Shown here in pieces: positions 31,961 to 41,456 of a stretch of 64,000 nt of DNA. The position numbers were made by a program, and so were the translations under genes. The DNA is taken from assembly GCA_000165345.1 (NCBI GenBank), contig CM000433.1, forward strand, positions 480,001 through 544,000, read 5' to 3'. Numbering within the stretch: position 1 is the first letter of the stretch; each line of letters opens with the position of its first letter. The notes under the pieces are model-generated. The model ran no database searches. It saw only the letters and a list, made by a program, of their open reading frames with translations, and had not been told where the DNA came from.

Positions 31961-33607
31961 ATGACAGGAAATGTAATAAATTTGGGAGATTATGTAGTTA
32001 TTAGGGAGATAACAGGTTCACAGAAACTTATCCAAATTAAGGATAGTTCTCAAAACTTTTATTTGGGAAAATATAGCATCAAAGGTTCAGATATAATAGG
32101 TAAAAACTACTATAGTACTTTAAGCTTAGAAGATGGAAAATGGGTAATTGGTTCAATTTTAAACAGTGAGGAAATATTAAAAGATATCTTGAGTATAGAT
32201 GCTAATGCCGAGAATAATCAAGTAGATGAAGAAAAAAGTATTAATAATATGCAAGAATTGAAAAAGAAAAGAACAAGATATAATCAGCTTTTAGGTAGAG
32301 AGGTTGAGGTAGATTCAGATGACTCCAATTCTGAAAAGGAATCAGGAGATGAACAAGATAAATTAGAAAAGGTAAAAAGAAAAAGAAATGAAATTTTATC
32401 ATTAAACAAGGCAAATGATAGTAACTTGATCAGATCTTTAGCATTATCAAGTAGTTCTTTTAAGAATAAGACAAACTTTTCTAAAGAAAAGTACATTAAG
32501 AAATTGCAATTAAGATATTTAAAACAAATTATATTACTGCCATCTACACTATTGAATATTATAGAAACTTCAAGCTGTCAACCAAAAATTAGATCTGATA
32601 AGCTAAGTCCAAATTCAGTTGGGCCAAGATGGGGTCAATGTACTGTTAGAATTGAAACAATAGGAAACATATTAACTCACGGTAACGTTTCATCTGGTAG
32701 TAAAGTACTTTTATATGATAATTTGAGTAATGGTGTAGTTGGAGGATCAATATATCGTCAGTTATGTAATATTGGAAGTTTATATGAAATATCAATGAAT
32801 AAATTAACTTTTGATACTTTTGAAGGGTACTTTCATGGAAAGCTTGCAATAAACTTTGAAGCAATAGTAAATGATCAAAAACCAAAAGTACACTATCATA
32901 CAATTCCAATGTCAGCATTAGAAATATTTTATAAGGAAATGGAAAAATTACCTGATGAATTTTATGATGAAAATCAAGGTTTTCTAACAGAAAAATTAGA
33001 TATAAAACATGAATGGCTTAATTATAAAATTAATACACATTCAAAAGGAGATCTGAATGACGAAAAATCCCAAAATAAAAAGAAAAGAGTTTACAATAGA
33101 ATTAATATGCTTGAAAACCTATATTCAGAAGGAGTAGATACAGTTATTCTAGTAATTGATCAAGTTAAATGGCAAACAACCGTGAACTTGCAAAATAATA
33201 GAAAACAAAATTCGATAGAAAACACTAAAAATGATAGCAATGATATCAACAATAACCATTCTAATCATATCCAAGATGATAATTCCGAGTCTAATCGTAT
33301 TATTGATGAGAAAACTATTTATTTCGATATAGAAAAGATGATACAAGTCACGCAAGAATATCTCAAGCCAGGAGGTAAGCTTCTCATTTTCACTCCTTTT
33401 ATGACAACAGAGCTACTCCAAATCCACCAAGATTTATCTCTCTCAACAAGAGTTGATAATTCGAAATTCCACCCTTTTATTGGTATTAAGCTTGAAGAAA
33501 CCTTTATTAGAGAGCATCAAATTATTGACCAAAGGACTCACCCCACAATGGATGCAAATCTACCAATTTTTTCAGGTTTTTTGCTCTCTGCAATTCATAT
33601 TTCATAG
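31961..33607 (+). CDS. TRM6: tRNA (m1A58) methyltransferase non-catalytic subunit TRM6/Gcd10
   Basis: ATG is at 31961. The N-terminal DYVVIREITGSQKLIQIKDSS...LGKYSIKGSDIIGKNY and central FKNKTNFSKEKYIKKLQLRYLKQIILLPSTLLNII match human TRMT6 FRDKTEFAQDKYIKKKKKKYEAIITVVKPSTRILSIMYY. Confidence 0.7.
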   Translation: MTGNVINLGDYVVIREITGSQKLIQIKDSSQNFYLGKYSIKGSDIIGKNYYSTLSLEDGKWVIGSILNSEEILKDILSIDANAENNQVDEEKSINNMQELKKKRTRYNQLLGREVEVDSDDSNSEKESGDEQDKLEKVKRKRNEILSLNKANDSNLIRSLALSSSSFKNKTNFSKEKYIKKLQLRYLKQIILLPSTLLNIIETSSCQPKIRSDKLSPNSVGPRWGQCTVRIETIGNILTHGNVSSGSKVLLYDNLSNGVVGGSIYRQLCNIGSLYEISMNKLTFDTFEGYFHGKLAINFEAIVNDQKPKVHYHTIPMSALEIFYKEMEKLPDEFYDENQGFLTEKLDIKHEWLNYKINTHSKGDLNDEKSQNKKKRVYNRINMLENLYSEGVDTVILVIDQVKWQTTVNLQNNRKQNSIENTKNDSNDINNNHSNHIQDDNSESNRIIDEKTIYFDIEKMIQVTQEYLKPGGKLLIFTPFMTTELLQIHQDLSLSTRVDNSKFHPFIGIKLEETFIREHQIIDQRTHPTMDANLPIFSGFLLSAIHIS

Positions 33608-34036: not shown

Positions 34037-37000
34037 ATGAATGAGCTAGATTCTTGGAACAGAAAATGGAGAACATTATGGTGTTGGACTCATATATATG
34101 TTCATTACAAAAGAGCTCAGATTTATACAAGAAATTTACCTGAGGAAGTAAAATATATATATTGGAATAGTAAGCATTCTCAGTTTGCTGAATTGATATG
34201 GAGAAATATATCAGAGTTACGAGGATGGTGGATTAAAGTGGGGCAGTTTTTGTCAACAAGAGGAGATTTACTTCCAAGAGAGTATGTGACATATTTGGGT
34301 AAATTACAAGATATAATGCCCTGTATGGAGTGGAATATTGTGGAAGGAATATTAAAGGAGGAATTAGGTAAGGATATTGAAAAAGTGTTTAAAGAGATAC
34401 AAGAAAAGCCAATTGCAGCAGCATCAATATCTCAAGTACATAAAGCAGTATTGAGTGAAGGAGAGAAAAAAGTAGTGATTAAAATACAGTATCCAAATAT
34501 TCAAGAGACTCTTAATCATGATATGAAGAATTTGGAACAATTAACATGGGCTTTTGGTCTGTTAGAAGATTATTCTGATTCTATTCATATTCTAAATGAA
34601 TGGAAAAGCTCTGCGTATTCAGAACTTGATTTTAAGAATGAGCTAAAGAATCAAAAGAGAGCATATGAGATGTTTGAGGATTCAGGGATAGAAATAATTA
34701 TTCCTAAAGTTTATACAGAATATACAACTGAAAAGATATTAACAATGGAATATATTAAAGGTTTTAATATATTAAATAAAATGCTATTAAAAGAAAATAG
34801 AGTTAATAAAAGGGAATTATTGGAAATATTATGTGATTCCTTTGCTTATCAGATTCATATTCATGGTTTTTTTCATGGTGATCCTCAGCCAAGTAATATT
34901 TTAGTGGTTTATGATGAACTAAAGAGAAAATACATTCCAGCAATTTTGGATTGGGGAATGGTTAAGATTTTTGATAAAAGTAAACAAATTGCATTTTCAA
35001 AGTAAGTTTTCTTAAAAATTGTTATTATTATTTCTTAATTTACTATTTAAAGAATGGTATATAGTATTTCAACATTAAATTTGATGGGATTTATAGAATC
35101 ATTTGAAGAAATGGGATTTAAATTCAAAAATGATCATAGAAATTCTATAGATCCTGAAATGTATATGGATGCTTTGAGAATAGTTTTTAAAGAAATTGAA
35201 ATAGATAAAATAGATCAAAGTTCAATAAGGGTAAGTTGAGAGATTATAAATGTTATGTTTCTTTATTAAAACATAAAGAAACATAAACAGGAAAGAGGTA
35301 ATTATTAATTCATTCAATAGGAGTCAGGATATGCAGCGTATAAAACAGCAACGGAACTTTCATATATGAAAAGTGGACAAATTAATGATTTAAATCTAAT
35401 GGATTACTGGCCAAATGATATAATATATTTTGTAAGGATTTTATCGTTATTACGTGGTATATGTGCTGAATTGAATGAGAGTATACCGATTTTGAAAATA
35501 TTATCCAGAAGAGCACAACAATTCTTATATTTAGAGTCAATTAATTTAGAATTAAATAAACAACAGTTATTAAAAAGAAGATTTACAAATAAATTTGAAA
35601 GGAGATTAAGCGATTACATTGAAAAAATAATGAATGAAAATAATGTATTGGGATTACAAATAGCTGTTATAAAGAATGGAAAGAATTTAGTAAATATTTC
35701 AAAAGGTATTAAGGGAGAATTAAATGGAAATCAGATTGATGAAAATACATTATTTAATGGCTTCTTTATCAATCTTGGAATTTTGGTAATTGCAATATTA
35801 ATATGTGTGGAAAAGGGTTATATATCTCTGGATGATCCAATTTGTCATTATTGGGATGGTTTTATAAGATATGGAAAGAGGAACATAACATTAAGGCATG
35901 TTCTTAATCATAGATCTGGTGTAATATCGTTTTTTCCAGAGGATATGGGTTTAAAAGAATTGTTAAATTATGAAAAGATGGTCCGAATAATTGAAGATTC
36001 TGCTCCACAGGTTCCAATAAATCAAATTACACGATATAATCCTTATTTTTTAGGTTGGATATTATCGGAATTGATAGCATTATTAACAAATCAATCAACA
36101 GCAAAGTTTATAGAGGAAAATATAATAAACCCATTTAATTTATCTGATGGTATAAAGATGTATTTACCTGAGTATAGCTTGAATAATGACCAAGTAAGTA
36201 TTTATCAATCTGAAAAGTATGATGAAACAAATATTGGGACTAATAATAATAATAATAAGTTCTTATTTCCTCTATTTTCCCCACGTTCTTCATCATCATT
36301 TTTTGCTCAAGAAGAATTTTCTTCAAGTATAATGAGATTATCAAATATTAAAAGTAAATTAGAAAATAGTAATGGTACTCAATTGATGAATGAAATAAAA
36401 GATATAATAATTCAAAAGTTAACCCCAAAAAGAATAAATAAGGAAGAAAAAGAAAAGGAAAAAGAGAAGGAAAAAAATATTAATGATTATAATGAAGAAG
36501 ATAATAATGATGAGAATGCTAATATGATTGATTTTTATGAAAGATGTGCATTGGTAAATAGAAAAATGAAGTTTTCTTCAATATCTTTTAAACAAGTACT
36601 TGAAAAACTTAAATCATCTGACTTATATAAATTAAAAAATTATGGTTATCAAGATTTTAACAAAACAAAAATCAATTTTAAATTATCAACCTTGGAGTAT
36701 TTTTTTTTAAAACCACATATATTAGATCCCTTAATATATAATTCAAAAAAATTAATAAATAAATGGATACCACCTACAAATGGAAGATATACATCTTTAT
36801 CATTAGCAAAATTATATGACCACTTAATTAGAGGAGAGATTATAGGAGATGAATTATTAAAACAAGTTATTAAAAATGAATCAATTACTTTTGATAATTC
36901 TATCGAAGGATTAATATTAACATATGGAGGTCCTAGAAAATGGTCTCTTGGGTTTCAAATTTTAGAATGTAAAAAACTTTATTATCATCAAAATAATCAA

Positions 37001-37210
37001 AAAGATGATGATCAACCTTGTTTTAAAGGAATCGGTCAATTTGATACTGGTGGTAATTTATCATTTTGTTTTCCAGAAATTGATTTATCTATTGCCATTC
37101 TAACAAATGATTATGTTAAAGGATCTTATATATCACAATCAATATTACGTTACATATTAGAAAACTTTGGATTATATCTGAACAATTACGTTCCATTACA
37201 TTTTTCTTAG
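34037..37210 (+). CDS. ABC1/ADCK (UbiB-family) atypical kinase fused to a C-terminal beta-lactamase-like domain. Three exons: 34037..35001, 35053..35230, 35321..37210.
   Basis: Three consecutive ORF-track fragments join in frame through GTAAGT donors at 35002 and 35231 and AG acceptors at 35051-52 (tttaaag|) and 35319-20 (tcaatag|). ABC1 motifs are WWIKVGQFLSTRGDLLP, AAASISQVHKAVL, VVIKIQYPNI and HGFFHGDPQPSNILV. Downstream are LGLQIAVIKNG...HVLNHRSGV, which resemble beta-lactamase/serine-hydrolase motifs. Confidence 0.8.
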
Positions 37211-37541: not shown

Positions 37542-40500
37542 TCAGGGGACTGCTCTATGGGGCGCGATTGGTGGGTTGGAGATTCCTCCATCGAGTTTAC
37601 AAAGGTTAGGGGAAGTCTTAGTTAAATTGTCTCCGCATATATTGTTGTCATTATTAGAGTTGTTACTGTTCTCCGTTCTATTTCCGCTGTGATCAGAATT
37701 ATCGATACTTGATTGGGTAAGTCTTCTATTAGGGGAATTTGTTTCAATGGTGGATGATGAGATTGAGATCCCTGGACAAGTAATGGTAGAGGGGGAAAAG
37801 TGATGGATTAATTTCCCTTTGAGATCATCCTCCATCTTCGTCAAAAAATTTGGTTCTTTTGATGGAGTTAGATAGCTACCATTTAAATTACTAATATTAG
37901 GGAGAGTTAGATTATTTTGTTGGTTGGTATCAATTACTTTGGTGGGAAATGCTATAGGAGGGAGCAAAGGTGAAGAAACTGTAGTTGTGGATGCGGTTGT
38001 GGTACTAGAATTAAGGCCAGTAGTAGCAGTAGTAGTGTTAGTAGTAATAGCAGTAGTAGCATTAGTAGAATTAGCAATGACTGTAGCGATATCATTAGTA
38101 GTAACAGTGGAAGCAGCAATATCTGGCACATTGTTGGTAGTGTTGATCATGCAAGTGGTAGAGGATGAGGAGTTATCATCAGTTCCTGTACAGGTCTTGA
38201 TAGCCTGTACGTTTTGTTGTGATTTCTGAATTAGATCTAAATACAGCTTATTGATATCAGCTCCTCTAATCATCTTTGAATCACATAAGAACTCATCTTT
38301 TGTGGAAACAAGCCTAAATAGCTCTCCTTGCTTCTTAAGCTCCTTCCTTAAGCTTTCCCTTGTGCTTGGGCCAATTCCTGTTTTGGCTTTCTTTCTATCC
38401 ATGTTACATGGTAAATCCATCCAAAAGGAAAGTTTCTCTTTTGCAACCATTTTAAGTCCTTCTCCTCCACAAATGCTGGACAATATATCCGGAACAAGTT
38501 TTGAGAGATGCATCTCTTGCTGCATAGATCCATCTTCTCCTTTATTATTATTATTATTCTCATTGTTACAATCGGCATTGCTACTTTTAACTCTTCTAGA
38601 TCTGAGTCCTTGAGAAATGCTTCCTCCTTCCTGTTGATTTCCTTGTAATCCTCCTCCCTCTCCTCCTTTATAATGATGGTTTTGCGAACCACTACCACTA
38701 TTGTTAGAATAATAATATTCAGAATAGTCTCCTGTAGAAGATGATCCATCCAAAGGTGGTTGTGGAAGGAAAGCAAATTTCCCAGAAAATGCTGGGACAT
38801 AATCCTTAACTAAATGAGGTACAGTCTCCACACTAAAATGAAGATTCTCAATTCTGCTTAATTCTGAAGGGGAAATAATCATTTGGGAGCCATTAATACG
38901 ATTACTTCCGCCATATCTTCCGTAGGTACTACCAGTAATGTTTGTAGAGGAGGTAATAGCATTACCATTACTTTTTATCATACTAGAAACTGTGTGGTCA
39001 CTAAGATCCATCATTCCTTCGCTGCCTATAGAAATCCCTCCCTGTTCTGATTTTGTATTGATGCCGGTACTATCTTGTCCGCCTCCCTTAGAAGATATAG
39101 AATTCAGATTTGAGTTTTGGGTACCCTTTATAGCTTGTTCACTTTCAATAATTGAAAGTAAATTAGAAGCTTGGAATCTACCTGAACTCCTCGATGCTCC
39201 TGTTCCTCTACCTGCAGCTCTCCTACTCATTCTCCTCCCTACAGAACTTTGAGCTGTTGTACCAGAACCAACTATTGATGAAGAGGATGAAAGAGCTGAA
39301 ATTGTAGCCTTTCCCTCCAAATCATCAATCAACATTTCTCCATTTCCTGAACCATTTATTAATCTAGATGAATTATTGCCCATTCGAATATTATTAGATC
39401 CACCTAGCCCAGAAATCAAATCCATAGCATGACTACCACTACTTCCATGGCCATCTAATAGGCTCTCTGACCCTCTTCTAGAGGAAGCTAACTCCTCTGG
39501 AGTCTGTTGTTTACTTACTTTAACTCCTCGAATTGCTGAAGCACTTAAACCTAAAACCGCGCGCAACTCGTCTCCTATCAATGAGTGATGGTGAGTACTA
39601 TGTAGTTGTTGCTGTTGTTGCTGCTGCTGTTGAAAATGCTGTTGCTGCTGCAGTTGTTGTAAGTCTCCAATTCCTCCCCCTTGTCTTGCACCTACTCCTA
39701 CTGTCCCACAACCACCAACTATAGGAATGCAGCCAGGGGCTGGGATAGCAACAGGAACAGATACTGAGTTAGAAGCAGAAGCTGCCATAGACTGTAATGA
39801 CTGTTGTAGCTGGATCTGTTGTAACTGAAGTTGTTGCTGAAGATGATGTAGTACCGGCTGAAAACCTGGATGCAACCCGCCCGCCCGCTGCATTTGAGCG
39901 CCAATGTGGGGAAATGATTGCATGTGATGCATTCCTTGAATGGGCGCCAAATTTTGAAGAGCGTGGAGTTGCTGAAGATGGGGATGATTATGAAGCTGTT
40001 GTTGTTGCTGTTGCTGCTGTTGTTGCTGCTGCTGCTGTTGTTGCTGTTGTTGTTGTTGCTGCTGCTGCTGTTGTTGTTGCTGTTGTTGTTGCTGTTGCTG
40101 TTGTTGTTGCTGCTGTTGGGTTAGATAAGCTGCAGCCAAAGCCCATTCTTTCATCTGTAACTGTCTTTGTAACATCTGTTGTTGTTGAGCGAATGCGAGC
40201 ATTTGAAGATGTTGGTACATTTGTTGTTGTTGTTGCTGCTGCTGTTGTTGCTGCTGTTGCTGTTGTTGCTGTTGTTGAACCTCCTCAAACTTTTCTTGCT
40301 GTTGTTGAGACACCAGATTTTCTTGCTGATCCTGGAGCTCTATTTTGCTGGAGGTATTCTCTTCACCCATCATTTTGGAATCAATTTCCATCCCTTTCAT
40401 ACCACAATCTTCTTTGTCAATTAACTCATCGGCGCTCGTCGCTTTTTGTGCTGAAATATTCTCAGTTTCTACTATAGGCCTTACCTCGGCTTTTGGTTCA

Positions 40501-41456
40501 TGCTCTTCAAGCGCAACACATAACTGAGATTTAGAATCCGTTGTTTCCGTTGACTGAGGTGGTTGACTTATTATGTCTAAGAAATTAGCAGCATTATTAG
40601 GAGGATTAGAGTTTAATGCGTAAGAGTTGTTCGCATTCTGGAGATTCTGGATTTGTCTTTGAACCTGGAGTAGTTGTTCTTGGCTTATTTGTTGTTTATT
40701 TGATTGGCTCTGGGGAAGAGAAGGTACTGAAGGATTTAAGCCTTGAAACTGGTGGTTACCAACAACTTTGGGAAGTATTGGGATTAGTCCTAAAGGAGTA
40801 AGCGCCAGTGTTGGTTGAGGAGGAACAGTCTGTGCTGAAGTAGATAGATCTTCATTGGAGCCCAGTATTTGAAACTGGCCATTCAGTTGAACTTGTGAAA
40901 GAGCTGGTTCTGTTATTCCCGCATTTCCTCCTCCTCCTCTTCCATCTCCAGCGATTGTATTTGTTGCATTTGGATGTAATTGATTACGATTCTTATTAAT
41001 CTCATGAAGAATCATCTGTGCTGCAGCAGCTTTTAATGAGTTCGATGGTTTGGTTCCATCTTCTTCTCCAAGTTCAATTTTCTGACCCTGTTGACTACCA
41101 TTATTAGGAAAATTACCATACATAAAAGGAAAAGAAGGATGGCTCCCTCCTCCCATTGCAATTTGTTGGGCCAAGAATTGATTGGCTGCTGTAACTGCAT
41201 TCATCTGAGAATGTGGACCTTGGATAGAAATACCTCCATTTTGTCCTAATAATCCTCCTCCTGCAACCAAAGGTAGACCATTTTGGAATCCTAAAGAAGC
41301 TGATGACGCATTTAAGCATGTAACACCTCCTCCAACTCCACCATTATTACTATTACTACTATTATTACCAATATTATTGTTACTATTATTCACATTACCT
41401 ATGCATGCTCCAATCATAGGATTCAAACCTTGTATTCCAATGTTAGAGTTCTCCAT
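37542..41456 (-). CDS. large poly-Q/N/S/G-rich low-complexity protein (1304 aa), a likely nuclear regulator
   Basis: The start is ATG (cat at 41454-41456). It has several Q runs of 20-46 residues, plus N-, S-, T- and G-rich tracts. A short conserved-looking basic segment is DRKKAKTGIGPSTRESLRKELKKQGELFRLV. I recognise no catalytic domain. Confidence 0.55.
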   Translation of the reverse strand: MENSNIGIQGLNPMIGACIGNVNNSNNNIGNNSSNSNNGGVGGGVTCLNASSASLGFQNGLPLVAGGGLLGQNGGISIQGPHSQMNAVTAANQFLAQQIAMGGGSHPSFPFMYGNFPNNGSQQGQKIELGEEDGTKPSNSLKAAAAQMILHEINKNRNQLHPNATNTIAGDGRGGGGNAGITEPALSQVQLNGQFQILGSNEDLSTSAQTVPPQPTLALTPLGLIPILPKVVGNHQFQGLNPSVPSLPQSQSNKQQISQEQLLQVQRQIQNLQNANNSYALNSNPPNNAANFLDIISQPPQSTETTDSKSQLCVALEEHEPKAEVRPIVETENISAQKATSADELIDKEDCGMKGMEIDSKMMGEENTSSKIELQDQQENLVSQQQQEKFEEVQQQQQQQQQQQQQQQQQQQMYQHLQMLAFAQQQQMLQRQLQMKEWALAAAYLTQQQQQQQQQQQQQQQQQQQQQQQQQQQQQQQQQQQQQQQQQLHNHPHLQQLHALQNLAPIQGMHHMQSFPHIGAQMQRAGGLHPGFQPVLHHLQQQLQLQQIQLQQSLQSMAASASNSVSVPVAIPAPGCIPIVGGCGTVGVGARQGGGIGDLQQLQQQQHFQQQQQQQQQLHSTHHHSLIGDELRAVLGLSASAIRGVKVSKQQTPEELASSRRGSESLLDGHGSSGSHAMDLISGLGGSNNIRMGNNSSRLINGSGNGEMLIDDLEGKATISALSSSSSIVGSGTTAQSSVGRRMSRRAAGRGTGASRSSGRFQASNLLSIIESEQAIKGTQNSNLNSISSKGGGQDSTGINTKSEQGGISIGSEGMMDLSDHTVSSMIKSNGNAITSSTNITGSTYGRYGGSNRINGSQMIISPSELSRIENLHFSVETVPHLVKDYVPAFSGKFAFLPQPPLDGSSSTGDYSEYYYSNNSGSGSQNHHYKGGEGGGLQGNQQEGGSISQGLRSRRVKSSNADCNNENNNNNKGEDGSMQQEMHLSKLVPDILSSICGGEGLKMVAKEKLSFWMDLPCNMDRKKAKTGIGPSTRESLRKELKKQGELFRLVSTKDEFLCDSKMIRGADINKLYLDLIQKSQQNVQAIKTCTGTDDNSSSSTTCMINTTNNVPDIAASTVTTNDIATVIANSTNATTAITTNTTTATTGLNSSTTTASTTTVSSPLLPPIAFPTKVIDTNQQNNLTLPNISNLNGSYLTPSKEPNFLTKMEDDLKGKLIHHFSPSTITCPGISISSSTIETNSPNRRLTQSSIDNSDHSGNRTENSNNSNNDNNICGDNLTKTSPNLCKLDGGISNPPIAPHRAVP
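39996..40127 (-). repeat. (CAG/CAA)n poly-Q microsatellite. Further tracts lie at 40220-40278 and 39601-39660.
   Basis: The plus strand reads as (CTG/TTG)n. It encodes Q runs of about 40+ residues within the 37542..41456 CDS. Confidence 0.85.

What the first reader, a model, noticed from the sequence alone, without database searches (positions are those of the whole stretch)
34037..37210. Three ORF fragments are one spliced ABC1/ADCK kinase with a beta-lactamase-like C-terminal domain
ORFs 34037-35005, 35054-35239 and 35366-37210 are co-oriented. They are separated by two short segments that begin GTAAGT and end in AG, and splicing at 35001|35053 and 35230|35321 keeps the frame. The first intron is phase 2 and the second is phase 0. 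Exon 1-2 carry the UbiB/ABC1 signatures AAASISQVHKA, VVIKIQYP and HGDPQPSN. Exon 3 carries a serine-hydrolase / beta-lactamase-like domain. ABC1 kinases are normally mitochondrial and regulate CoQ biosynthesis. This kinase/beta-lactamase fusion architecture is unusual outside plants and alveolates. It is worth examining in an organism with a minimal mitosome.
Basis: partly seen in the sequence, partly recalled or inferred. Interest (0 to 1): 0.6.

Follow-up and report, generated by a model that had tools for sequence, protein, structure and literature searches.

The report
Spliced UbiB kinase, dead lactamase domain
The three reading frames are one three-exon Cryptosporidium parvum gene, already merged in current public annotation, that encodes an intact UbiB/ABC1 ATPase-like domain fused to a beta-lactamase-fold domain without its catalytic residues; it is probably not tied to the mitosome or to coenzyme Q synthesis.

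Summary
ORFs 34037-35005, 35054-35239 and 35366-37210 join through two GTAAGT...AG introns (35002-35052, phase 2; 35231-35320, phase 0) into a 1010-aa protein. It carries Pfam ABC1 (205 bits) and Beta-lactamase (97 bits) domains.

The window is C. parvum. ORF 1 is cgd5_2400. The joined protein equals GenBank QOY41673.1 ('UbiB domain containing protein') except for that record's missing last two residues, so the merged model is already public.

Both introns sit at the same position and phase in six Cryptosporidium species, with varying lengths. A solved ABC1 protein aligns continuously across both junctions.

- **Hydrolase domain is dead.** SxxK is F530-I-N-L533 and the third motif is QFD; only the Tyr remains. 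The domain is still under purifying selection (dN/dS 0.12-0.26).
- **The fusion is widespread.** It also occurs in red and green algae, a raphidophyte, a gregarine, Plasmodium, choanoflagellates and an ichthyosporean.
- **The mitosome/CoQ link is weak.** C. ubiquitum, reported to lack CoQ synthesis, keeps an intact orthologue. C. parvum has a separate COQ8-like paralogue (cgd8_3250). The listed Plasmodium orthologue is ER/VAP-proximal.

Verdict: real, already known, modest interest.

The parts
34037..35001 (+). Exon 1 (aa 1-321 plus 2 nt). Encodes the UbiB N-terminal extension and most of the kinase-like core. The start ATG is directly preceded by an in-frame TAA.
   Evidence: It is identical to XP_626177.1/EAK87965.1, which is cgd5_2400. 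Orthologues all start MNELDSWNRKW.
35002..35052 (+). Intron 1: 51 nt, phase 2, GTAAGT...AAAG, 14% GC.
   Evidence: It has the same position and phase in C. meleagridis, C. ubiquitum, C. canis, C. ryanae and C. serpentis, with lengths 51/112/55/67/171 nt.
35053..35230 (+). Exon 2 (aa 322-381). Encodes C-lobe helices of the UbiB domain (KMVYSISTLNLMGFIESFEEMGF...).
   Evidence: It aligns within the continuous match to solved ABC1 protein 7cy2 (query 51-442). It is conserved as far as coccidia.
35231..35320 (+). Intron 2: 90 nt, phase 0, GTAAGT...ATAG. A second in-frame AG lies 3 nt downstream (TAG|GAG).
   Evidence: It is conserved in six species with lengths 90/89/108/79/59/71 nt. The C. meleagridis model uses the downstream AG.
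35321..37210 (+). Exon 3 (aa 382-1010 plus the TAG stop). Encodes the end of the UbiB domain, a linker, and the beta-lactamase-fold domain with its internal disordered insertion.
   Evidence: Old Iowa II model XP_626178.1 (629 aa) starts exactly at 35321.
34235..34246 (+). KxGQ motif (K67-V-G-Q70), the UbiB family signature.
   Evidence: alignment. It is conserved in all orthologues except C. felis.
34415..34483 (+). Ala-rich loop AAASISQVH (aa 127-135) and VVIK149 with the ATP-binding Lys.
34874..34951 (+). Catalytic loop H280-G-D282-P-Q-P-S-N287 and the metal-binding D305 of the DWG (DFG-like) motif.
   Evidence: D282, N287 and D305 are invariant in alignment A4.
35585..36172 (+). Beta-lactamase-fold N-terminal lobe (aa 470-665).
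   Evidence: Pfam PF00144 at 96.6 bits. PDB family VIII carboxylesterases 8j5v and 7y3z match at E 1e-13 to 1e-12. AF2 pLDDT is about 90 or higher.
35765..35776 (+). Degenerate SxxK motif, F530-I-N-L533. Both the nucleophile Ser and the general-base Lys are replaced.
   Evidence: plant SVTK, coccidia CxxK, Cryptosporidium FINL/NACL. (aligned to S-C-T-K of 8j5v).
36035..36037 (+). Tyr620, the equivalent of the class C / family VIII catalytic Tyr. It is retained.
36173..36682 (+). Low-complexity disordered insertion (aa ~666-835, rich in K/N/S/E) inside the lactamase fold. It contains an FFAT-like SSSSFFAQEEF at 36287-36319.
   Evidence: AF2 pLDDT is below 50 at residues 686-803 of the C. meleagridis model. 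dN/dS is 0.36-0.45. Tandem repeats lie at 36446-36518. Motif scan.
36683..37207 (+). Beta-lactamase-fold C-terminal lobe (aa 836-1010). The third motif is degenerate: Q954-F-D956 at 37037-37045.
   Evidence: Second HMMER stretch to 8j5v. AF2 pLDDT is 87-98 with beta strands completing the fold. Foldseek alignments of ~530 columns cover both lobes. Motif.

Best explanation
**Gene structure (shown, about 0.95).** Positions 34037-37210 are one three-exon C. parvum gene. It merges old model cgd5_2400 with the adjacent 'esterase' model XP_626178 and equals QOY41673.1. It encodes a 1010-aa protein.

**Domains.**
- Residues 1-~460 are a complete UbiB/ABC1 atypical-kinase-like domain. Every residue needed for ATP binding and hydrolysis is present: KxGQ, the Ala-rich loop, K149, E202, D282, N287 and D305.
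- Residues ~470-1010 are a family VIII-esterase / class C beta-lactamase fold interrupted by a ~170-aa disordered insertion.

**Dead hydrolase domain (shown).** Throughout the genus the hydrolase domain has lost the nucleophile Ser (to Phe530), the general-base Lys (to Leu533) and, in C. parvum, the HxG motif (now QFD). It still evolves under purifying selection as strong as the kinase domain. I therefore read it as a pseudoenzyme kept for binding or scaffolding.

**Function (inferred, about 0.4-0.5).**
- By analogy with COQ8A and the mycobacterial ABC1 proteins deposited as ADP, AMPPNP and erythromycin complexes, the UbiB domain is probably a lipid- or small-hydrophobic-ligand-coupled ATPase rather than a protein kinase.
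- The dead esterase domain would supply a ligand pocket or a partner-binding surface.
- The protein belongs to an old, eukaryote-wide UbiB-lactamase fusion family that includes PF3D7_1414500 and TGME49_246600.
- It most likely acts at the ER or at ER contact sites, independently of CoQ biosynthesis, which would be served by the separate COQ8-like paralogue cgd8_3250.
For: **Splicing.**
- Frame and junctions check out.
- The joined protein is identical to P0126 (QOY41673.1/WRK32386.1) apart from that record's missing last 2 residues.
- Intron positions and phases are conserved in six species. Lengths vary and are not multiples of three. Every donor is GTAAGT and every acceptor AG.
- In the more distant species exons are more conserved than introns. 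For example, against C. ubiquitum the exons are 81-85% identical and the introns 43-62%.
- PDB 7cy2 aligns continuously to aa 51-442, across both junctions.
- A transcriptome-derived relative (P0017, GHVP01024931) carries both domains in one ORF.
- Synteny Gcd10p / this gene / large poly-Q gene is conserved.

**Domains.**
- Pfam hits both domains.
- The AF2 model of the 87%-identical C. meleagridis orthologue has pLDDT 79 and pTM 0.75.
- Foldseek finds COQ8A (TMt 0.75) and family VIII esterase 8j5v (TMt 0.77).

**Motifs.** Kinase motifs are intact and SxxK is lost.

**Constraint.** dN/dS is 0.12-0.26 for the lactamase lobes and 0.14-0.22 for the UbiB domain.

**Not COQ8.**
- TIGR01982 scores 218 bits against a cut-off of 487.
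- A cgd8_3250 fragment hits COQ8B best (50.6 bits against 37.3 for the mycobacterial protein). The homologous fragment of this protein gives the opposite order.
- C. ubiquitum is reported to lack CoQ synthesis, AOX and an electron transport chain (PMC5146892). It keeps orthologue P0003 with all kinase motifs.

**ER lead.**
- PF3D7_1414500 is listed as the orthologue in PMC3227725.
- It is a PfVAP proximity hit (log2FC 2.7, FDR 6e-9, no TM domain). [quoted passage not shown]
- TGGT1_246600 is labelled 'ER' in PMC10634940.
- The N-terminus has no hydrophobic anchor. The only strongly hydrophobic stretch (aa 524-544) is the buried alpha2 helix of the lactamase fold, modelled with pLDDT around 97.
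Against: **Splicing.** I could not obtain direct transcript evidence for the two junctions here. The exact 1010-aa product is not in the protein collection. Several public annotations still split the gene (C. hominis, C. tyzzeri, C. serpentis and newer C. parvum records WKS77895/6).

**Localisation.**
- I could not look up localisation in Cryptosporidium itself.
- The Plasmodium text does not say which of the six tagged hits gave the ER pattern and which gave perinuclear puncta.
- Orthology to PF3D7_1414500 and TGME49_246600 rests on a 2011 table plus my finding of Plasmodium and Hammondia fused relatives. It does not rest on a phylogeny.
- The Toxoplasma 'ER ABC transporter' label is the authors' shorthand and misnames the family.

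**Activity.**
- A dead SxxK does not exclude catalysis by other residues, since Tyr620 is kept.
- ATPase rather than protein-kinase activity is by analogy only.

**Structure.** The model is of the C. meleagridis protein, not the window's own sequence.
Confidence: 0.8

Rival explanations
1. One reading: a mitosomal ABC1/ADCK kinase that regulates CoQ biosynthesis, carrying an active serine-hydrolase (beta-lactamase-like) domain.
For: The UbiB family archetype COQ8A is mitochondrial and supports CoQ synthesis, and its structures match this protein. C. parvum retains CoQ biosynthesis genes and a mitosomal AOX (PMC12691609). Localisation in Cryptosporidium was not tested here.
Against: - SxxK and the third motif are lost.
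- C. ubiquitum lacks CoQ synthesis, AOX and an electron transport chain but keeps a constrained orthologue.
- A separate COQ8-like paralogue exists, cgd8_3250.
- The protein scores below the TIGR01982 cut-off.
- The N-terminus begins directly with a motif conserved family-wide, with no obvious presequence and no TM segment.
- The Plasmodium orthologue is ER-proximal.
Confidence: 0.08
2. Two independent genes, as in the original Iowa II annotation: a 322-aa ABC1 protein and a separately transcribed ~614-629-aa esterase-like protein. The 61-aa ORF between them would be non-coding.
For: Several GenBank annotations still show two genes. ORF 3 has its own ATG at 35366.
Against: - ORF 1 alone would truncate the UbiB fold. 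Solved ABC1 protein 7cy2 aligns through exon 2 and into exon 3, up to aa 442.
- The exon 2 peptide is conserved as far as coccidia.
- The introns are conserved in position and phase while their lengths drift.
- Fused proteins come from transcriptomes of relatives.
- Sequence upstream of ATG 35366, back to 35321, is conserved coding sequence (ESGYAAYKTATELS).
Confidence: 0.03
3. The lactamase-fold domain is still an enzyme that uses a non-canonical mechanism, for example Tyr620 or another residue acting as nucleophile or activating water.
For: Tyr620 is conserved in nearly all fused relatives. Purifying selection is strong. Coccidia have CxxK, which could be a Cys-nucleophile variant.
Against: In Cryptosporidium both Ser and Lys are replaced by hydrophobic residues: F/N at the Ser position and L/I at the Lys position. 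C. parvum also lost the His of the third motif. About 40% of fused relatives have independently lost S and/or K, which suggests that catalysis is often dispensable in this architecture.
Confidence: 0.07
4. The UbiB domain works as a genuine protein kinase that phosphorylates specific partner proteins.
For: All catalytic residues are present. A P. falciparum cross-linking study found the listed orthologue cross-linked to Pfs230, and its authors suggested a kinase-substrate relation (PMC13200099).
Against: The KxGQ N-terminal extension is conserved here. From my own knowledge of the COQ8A literature, which was not tested here, that extension occludes the peptide-binding groove in COQ8A, and COQ8A shows ATPase activity but no trans-kinase activity. 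The closest solved relatives were deposited as ADP, AMPPNP and erythromycin complexes.
Confidence: 0.1

Closest known systems
GenBank QOY41673.1 / WRK32386.1 'UbiB domain containing protein, partial' (C. parvum), plus fused orthologue models in C. hominis (OLQ17087.1), C. meleagridis, C. ubiquitum, C. canis, C. ryanae and C. xiaoi
   Same: Same gene. The C. parvum record is identical residue for residue over 1008 aa, so it uses the same two introns.
   Different: The record lacks the last two residues (FS) that precede the TAG at 37208. The C. hominis model OLQ17087.1 uses a different intron 1 acceptor and drops KMVYS. The C. meleagridis model uses the AG 3 nt downstream at intron 2.
COQ8A/ADCK3 and COQ8B (UbiB family archetypes; PDB 4ped, 5i35, 7udq, 9tvk)
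   Same: Same fold (Foldseek TMt 0.75). Same KxGQ, Ala-rich loop, Lys, Glu, Asp, Asn and Asp motifs.
   Different: Not the COQ8 orthologue. C. parvum has cgd8_3250 for that role. No N-terminal TM segment or presequence is evident. It carries a C-terminal lactamase-fold domain that COQ8 lacks.
Mycobacterial ABC1 proteins MSMEG_1954 / MABP-1 and Rv3197 (PDB 7cy2, 5yjz)
   Same: Best sequence match among solved structures (92.8 bits over aa 51-442). These are soluble UbiB-fold proteins, deposited as complexes with ADP, AMPPNP and erythromycin.
   Different: They are bacterial and single-domain. Identity is only ~20-23%.
Family VIII carboxylesterases / class C beta-lactamases / R61 DD-peptidase (PDB 8j5v, 7y3z, 5gkv, 1ci8, 1ikg)
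   Same: Same fold across both lobes (TMt 0.70-0.77). Pfam PF00144 scores above its cut-off. The catalytic-position Tyr is retained.
   Different: SxxK is FxxL and the third motif is QFD. A ~170-aa disordered insertion splits the fold. The domain is fused behind a UbiB domain.
Plant AT5G24810-type ABC1-beta-lactamase proteins (P0019 and the fragments named 'like AT5G24810')
   Same: Same two-domain order. The lactamase domain of the apicomplexan proteins is most similar to these.
   Different: The plant proteins keep SVTK and HSG, so they look catalytically competent. Identity is only ~26-28%. I found no functional study.
[quoted passage not shown]
   Same: They are listed as orthologues of cgd5_2400 (PMC3227725 supplement). 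Plasmodium and Hammondia proteins with the same N-terminus and both domains are among the top profile hits.
   Different: They are roughly twice as long (~1900-2100 aa in the Hammondia and Plasmodium relatives recovered here) because of large insertions. The localisation data (VAP-proximal, ER) come from those species, not from Cryptosporidium.

Membership tests
UbiB / ABC1 / ADCK atypical kinase-like family (Pfam PF03109) | Profile match above the curated cut-off | tested here: met
   204.9 bits against a cut-off of 22.9, aa 89-332.
UbiB / ABC1 / ADCK atypical kinase-like family (Pfam PF03109) | KxGQ motif in the N-terminal extension and the Ala-rich loop that replaces the Gly-rich loop | tested here: met
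   K67-V-G-Q70 and A127-A-A-S-I-S-Q-V-H.
UbiB / ABC1 / ADCK atypical kinase-like family (Pfam PF03109) | Catalytic Lys, alphaC Glu, catalytic-loop Asp and Asn, DFG-like Asp | tested here: met
   K149, E202, D282, N287 and D305 (DWG). They align to the corresponding residues of 7cy2.
UbiB / ABC1 / ADCK atypical kinase-like family (Pfam PF03109) | UbiB fold | tested here: met
   The AF2 model of the 87%-identical orthologue matches COQ8A at TMt 0.75, probability 1.00.
UbiB / ABC1 / ADCK atypical kinase-like family (Pfam PF03109) | ATP binding and ATPase activity | not testable with these tools
   Needs a biochemical assay.
COQ8 / bacterial UbiB orthologue (CoQ-biosynthesis support) | Equivalog-level profile score and best similarity to COQ8 | tested here: not met
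   TIGR01982 scores 218.6 against a cut-off of 487.55, and NF003404 scores 169.7 against 667. The homologous 65-aa fragment prefers mycobacterial ABC1 over COQ8, whereas cgd8_3250 prefers COQ8A/B.
COQ8 / bacterial UbiB orthologue (CoQ-biosynthesis support) | Co-occurrence with the CoQ pathway across species | tested here: not met
   It is retained intact in C. ubiquitum (dN/dS 0.16), which is reported to lack CoQ synthesis (PMC5146892).
Serine beta-lactamase / family VIII carboxylesterase / PBP-like hydrolases (Pfam PF00144) | Profile match above the cut-off, and the fold | tested here: met
   96.6 bits against a cut-off of 27. Foldseek TMt is 0.77 to 8j5v, with the alignment spanning both lobes.
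Serine beta-lactamase / family VIII carboxylesterase / PBP-like hydrolases (Pfam PF00144) | SxxK motif (nucleophile Ser and general-base Lys) | tested here: not met
   F530-I-N-L533 aligns to S-C-T-K of 8j5v and S-V-T-K of plant P0019. All Cryptosporidium species lack both residues.
Serine beta-lactamase / family VIII carboxylesterase / PBP-like hydrolases (Pfam PF00144) | Second-motif Tyr (YxN / Yxx) | tested here: met
   Y620 aligns to the Tyr of 8j5v and 7y3z. The Asn of the class C YxN motif is not present, which is also true of the esterase relatives.
Serine beta-lactamase / family VIII carboxylesterase / PBP-like hydrolases (Pfam PF00144) | Third motif KTG / HxG | tested here: not met
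   C. parvum has Q954-F-D. C. hominis has QSD, other Cryptosporidium species have H[SA]D (YSD in C. canis), and the plant protein has HSG. The assignment of this motif to KTG/HTG comes from my own knowledge of R61 and class C enzymes.
Spliceosomal introns | GT-AG boundaries that restore the frame, with position and phase conserved across species while length and sequence drift | tested here: met
   (six species).
Spliceosomal introns | Junction-spanning transcripts in C. parvum | not testable with these tools
   No RNA data were available. The exact spliced protein is absent from the assembly-derived collection.

The most novel reading that the evidence does not exclude
The protein is a VAP-tethered ATPase at the ER or at ER contact sites that handles hydrophobic prenyl-lipid or quinone-like ligands. 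Its UbiB domain supplies ATP-driven extraction. Its catalytically dead esterase-fold domain has been repurposed as the ligand pocket, and an FFAT-like motif in the disordered insertion (SSSSFFAQEEF in C. parvum, NDYFSAN in P. falciparum) docks it to VAP. This would define the function of an ancient, uncharacterised, eukaryote-wide UbiB-lactamase fusion family that acts independently of CoQ biosynthesis.
Probability: 0.2. Interest if true: 0.55.

Novelty: already known. Interest (0 to 1): 0.25.

Why it matters
For genome annotation, this is a clear case where the widely used Iowa II models (cgd5_2400 plus the neighbouring 'esterase') and several newer records still split one gene. Kinome and pathway tables built on those models under-describe the protein.

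Biologically, the gene is one of only two UbiB-family members listed for C. parvum, and it appears not to be the CoQ-related one. It belongs to a broadly conserved but functionally unstudied UbiB-lactamase fusion family whose hydrolase domain has lost its catalytic residues in many lineages. That makes it a reasonable but not urgent candidate for localisation and knock-down work.

It does not open a new window on the mitosome.

Tried and rejected
- **Structure of the exact spliced protein.** I modelled the 87%-identical C. meleagridis orthologue instead.
- **AFDB50 fold search for taxonomic distribution.** The library was not available. I used the 50%-representative profile search plus cluster look-ups instead.
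- **Literature.**
  - Searches for 'ABC1 + beta-lactamase + Cryptosporidium', 'ABC1K + lactamase', the old product name, and accession numbers returned nothing.
  - The UbiB + Cryptosporidium search returned only two unrelated papers.
  - The AT5G24810 papers were only gene lists.
- **Lactamase-domain profile search.** It mostly returned plant fragments and bacterial ~365-aa serine hydrolases. It showed affinity to AT5G24810-type proteins but was poor for judging architecture.
- **TM-helix reading of aa 524-544.** The Kyte-Doolittle score is 2.48. I rejected a membrane-spanning interpretation because this segment is the buried alpha2 helix of the lactamase fold and is modelled at pLDDT around 97.
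- **Alternative intron 2 acceptor at 35290.** Rejected: the next codons run into TAA (read directly from the sequence).
- **Motif enrichment as evidence.** GTAAGTT is not enriched in the window.
- **Not done.** I ran no further search on whether C. ubiquitum has lost the cgd8_3250 orthologue.


Full report
**1. Observation**

The three co-oriented ORFs are present exactly as described. GTAAGT begins at 35002 and at 35231. AG ends at 35052 and at 35320.

Joining 34037-35001, 35053-35230 and 35321-37210 gives a 3033-nt CDS with no internal stop, encoding 1010 aa. Exon 1 is 965 nt, so intron 1 is phase 2. Exon 2 is 178 nt, so intron 2 is phase 0. The introns are 51 and 90 nt, with 14% and 22% GC.

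The ATG at 34037 is immediately preceded by an in-frame TAA. All orthologues begin MNE[LF][DE]SWN. The donor heptamer GTAAGTT is not enriched in the window (10 found against 8.9 expected), so the motif alone proves nothing. The case rests on the evidence in section 3.

**2. Identity of the locus**

ORF 1 and ORF 3 are exact matches to C. parvum proteins: XP_626177.1/EAK87965.1 (322 aa) and WKS77896.1 (614 aa). The C. parvum kinome paper's alignment identifies the ORF 1 sequence as cgd5_2400, 'Atypical-ABC1' (PMC3227725).

The original Iowa II annotation split the locus into XP_626177.1 and XP_626178.1. The second of these is 629 aa and starts exactly at my exon 3 start. A newer C. parvum record is identical to the spliced product over 1008 aa and lacks only the final FS: QOY41673.1/WRK32386.1, 'UbiB domain containing protein, partial'.

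Full-length fused models also exist for C. hominis, C. meleagridis, chipmunk genotype I, C. ubiquitum, C. canis, C. ryanae and C. xiaoi. The merged gene model is therefore already public, although split models persist in several records.

**3. Evidence that the introns are real**

(a) *Conservation across species.* I fetched the orthologous loci of C. meleagridis, C. ubiquitum, C. canis, C. ryanae and C. serpentis.
- Both introns are at the same codon position and phase in all six species.
- Every donor is GTAAGT and every acceptor is AG.
- Intron 1 lengths are 51/51/112/55/67/171 nt. Intron 2 lengths are 90/89/108/79/59/71 nt.
- In C. serpentis the annotators split the gene, yet the same intron 1 restores AFSK|MVYCVSTLNL.
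- Against C. ubiquitum the exons are 81-85% identical and the introns 43-62%.

(b) *Continuity of homology.* The solved ABC1 protein 7cy2 aligns in one stretch to aa 51-442 and crosses both junctions. The two introns therefore interrupt the UbiB domain itself. ORF 1 alone would be a truncated fold, and ORF 3 starts inside the UbiB domain.

(c) *Transcript-derived relatives.* Several carry both domains in one ORF: GHVP01024931 (P0017), a gregarine, a raphidophyte and choanoflagellates.

(d) *Synteny.* The order Gcd10p(+), this gene(+), large poly-Q protein(-) is conserved.

I could not obtain direct junction reads for C. parvum with these tools.

**4. Domain anatomy**

Pfam finds ABC1 at aa 89-332 (204.9 bits) and Beta-lactamase at aa 478-657 (96.6 bits, profile positions 2-180 of 329).

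An AlphaFold2 model of the 87%-identical C. meleagridis orthologue has mean pLDDT 79.1 and pTM 0.75:
- Residues ~1-460 are a confident helical and kinase-like domain.
- Residues 471-665 and ~830-1005 are confident.
- Residues 686-803 are below pLDDT 50.

Foldseek matches the N-terminal domain to COQ8A (TMt 0.75) and to mycobacterial MSMEG_1954 and Rv3197. It matches the C-terminal domain to family VIII carboxylesterases (8j5v, TMt 0.77), R61 DD-peptidase and class C beta-lactamases. Those alignments run to ~530 columns, so both lobes on either side of the insertion form one fold.

The insertion (aa ~666-835) is K/N/S/E-rich and contains short tandem repeats.

**5. Catalytic motifs**

*Kinase-like domain.* All signature and catalytic residues are intact in C. 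parvum and in almost all orthologues:
- K67-V-G-Q70
- AAASISQVH
- K149
- E202
- H280-G-D282-P-Q-P-S-N287
- D305-W-G

*Lactamase domain.* The position of SxxK reads differently across lineages:

| Lineage | Sequence at the SxxK position |
|---|---|
| C. parvum and most intestinal Cryptosporidium | F530-I-N-L533 |
| C. ryanae, C. xiaoi | FINI |
| C. felis | FLNI |
| C. serpentis | NACL |
| An unidentified relative (P0009) | AVCN |
| Coccidia | C-x-x-K |
| A transcriptome relative (P0017) | SVSQ |
| Plant protein P0019 | SVTK |

The assignment is confirmed by the HMMER alignment to S-C-T-K of esterase 8j5v. Tyr620 aligns with the second-motif Tyr and is retained. The third motif is HSG in the plant protein, H[SA]D in most other Cryptosporidium species (YSD in C. 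canis), QSD in C. hominis and QFD in C. parvum.

The canonical acyl-enzyme machinery is gone.

**6. The dead domain is not decaying**

Nei-Gojobori dN/dS values against four species:

| Region | dN/dS |
|---|---|
| UbiB domain | 0.14-0.22 |
| Lactamase N-lobe | 0.12-0.20 |
| Lactamase C-lobe | 0.15-0.26 |
| Insertion | 0.36-0.45 |

The pseudo-hydrolase domain is at least as constrained as the kinase domain.

The very hydrophobic stretch at aa 524-544 (Kyte-Doolittle 2.48) is the buried alpha2 helix of the fold, not a membrane span.

**7. Distribution of the fusion**

A profile of eight fused proteins was searched against 1.84 billion 50%-identity representatives. More than 100 clusters had one matched stretch running from the UbiB domain into the lactamase N-lobe. 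Named examples:
- Apicomplexans: a gregarine (Blabericola), Plasmodium spp., Hammondia
- Green lineage: a liverwort, Chlorokybus, Mesostigma, Closterium
- A red alga (Cyanidiococcus)
- A raphidophyte (Chattonella)
- Holozoans: two choanoflagellates, the ichthyosporean Chromosphaera, and a protein whose identifier suggests Corallochytrium

The architecture is therefore old and widespread in eukaryotes, not a speciality of plants and alveolates. Among 169 aligned lactamase segments from about 150 such proteins, 83 keep SxxK, about 60 have lost S and/or K, and 25 were not aligned at that position. Non-catalytic versions are common.

**8. Function and the mitosome question**

The protein is not the COQ8 or UbiB orthologue:
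- It falls far below the NCBIfam equivalog cut-offs.
- C. parvum has a second ABC1, cgd8_3250. A fragment of cgd8_3250 prefers COQ8A/B (50.6 bits) over mycobacterial ABC1 (37.3 bits). The homologous fragment of this protein gives the reverse order.

Liu et al. 2016 report that C. ubiquitum has lost CoQ and polyisoprenoid synthesis, AOX and the whole electron transport chain (PMC5146892). C. ubiquitum nevertheless keeps this gene with every kinase motif and a dN/dS of 0.16. That argues against a role tied to CoQ synthesis.

The kinome paper lists PF14_0143 (now PF3D7_1414500) and TGME49_046600 (now 246600) as orthologues.
- In a 2025 preprint, PF3D7_1414500 is a strong PfVAP proximity-labelling hit (log2FC 2.73, FDR 5.9e-9, no TM domain).
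- It carries a candidate FFAT motif (NDYFSAN, position 1082).
- It was one of six hits endogenously tagged. [quoted passage not shown]
- A Toxoplasma phosphoproteome table labels TGGT1_246600 as 'ER'.

The C. parvum protein has no N-terminal hydrophobic segment. It begins directly with a motif that is conserved family-wide.

*My inference (about 0.4-0.5).* This is an ER- or contact-site-associated UbiB ATPase acting on a hydrophobic ligand. The dead esterase fold would serve as a ligand- or partner-binding module. The basis is analogy with COQ8A and with the mycobacterial ABC1 proteins deposited as nucleotide and erythromycin complexes. I tested no activity.

**9. Verdict**

The observation and the splice model are correct.

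The gene model is already in public databases, so novelty is 'already known'. What this work adds:
- The hydrolase domain is a conserved pseudoenzyme.
- The fusion is ancient and widespread.
- The gene is decoupled from CoQ biosynthesis.

Interest is modest.

Noticed in passing
window 35316-35326: Intron 2 ends in a tandem acceptor, TAG|GAG. Using the second AG (35323) would delete one Glu and keep the frame. The C. meleagridis public model uses the downstream AG. All the other Cryptosporidium models examined encode the Glu.
   Followed up: partly
window 36287-36319 (aa 704-714): There is an FFAT-like motif, SSSSFFAQEEF, in the disordered insertion. The P. falciparum orthologue has a scored FFAT candidate (NDYFSAN) and is VAP-proximal, and Cyclospora has LFYSANT. 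The motif is absent at this place in C. ubiquitum, C. canis and C. serpentis, so conservation is patchy.
   Followed up: partly
P0124 (C. hominis OLQ17087.1) compared with window 35053-35067: The C. hominis fused model reads ...QIAFSNISTLNL, dropping the KMVYS that every other species conserves. This is probably a mis-chosen intron 1 acceptor in that annotation.
   Followed up: no
P0008 (C. felis, 791 aa): In the C. felis orthologue model KxGQ is changed to RVGH. It also has HVD in place of HGD, and a GC/Pro/Ala-rich tail replaces the lactamase C-lobe. This is either real degeneration in C. felis or a faulty model.
   Followed up: no
window 37542-41456 (- strand): A convergent 1304-aa ORF with very long poly-Q/CAA-CAG tracts (tandem repeats at 39995-40277) ends about 330 nt from this gene's stop. 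A syntenic large gene with no Pfam hit is present in all five other Cryptosporidium species examined.
   Followed up: no
window 31961-33607 (+ strand): The upstream neighbour is a 548-aa ORF. Its orthologues carry Pfam Gcd10p (PF04189), and it is syntenic in all species examined.
   Followed up: no
Coccidian orthologues P0010, P0011, P0013, P0014 and P0255: Coccidia have C-x-x-K at the SxxK position: Cys replaces the nucleophile Ser while the Lys is kept. This could be a Cys-nucleophile variant of the lactamase fold rather than a dead enzyme.
   Followed up: no
P0126 (QOY41673.1 / WRK32386.1): The current C. parvum fused record is flagged 'partial' and stops two residues (FS) short of the TAG at 37208-37210, which is clearly present in the window.
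   Followed up: yes
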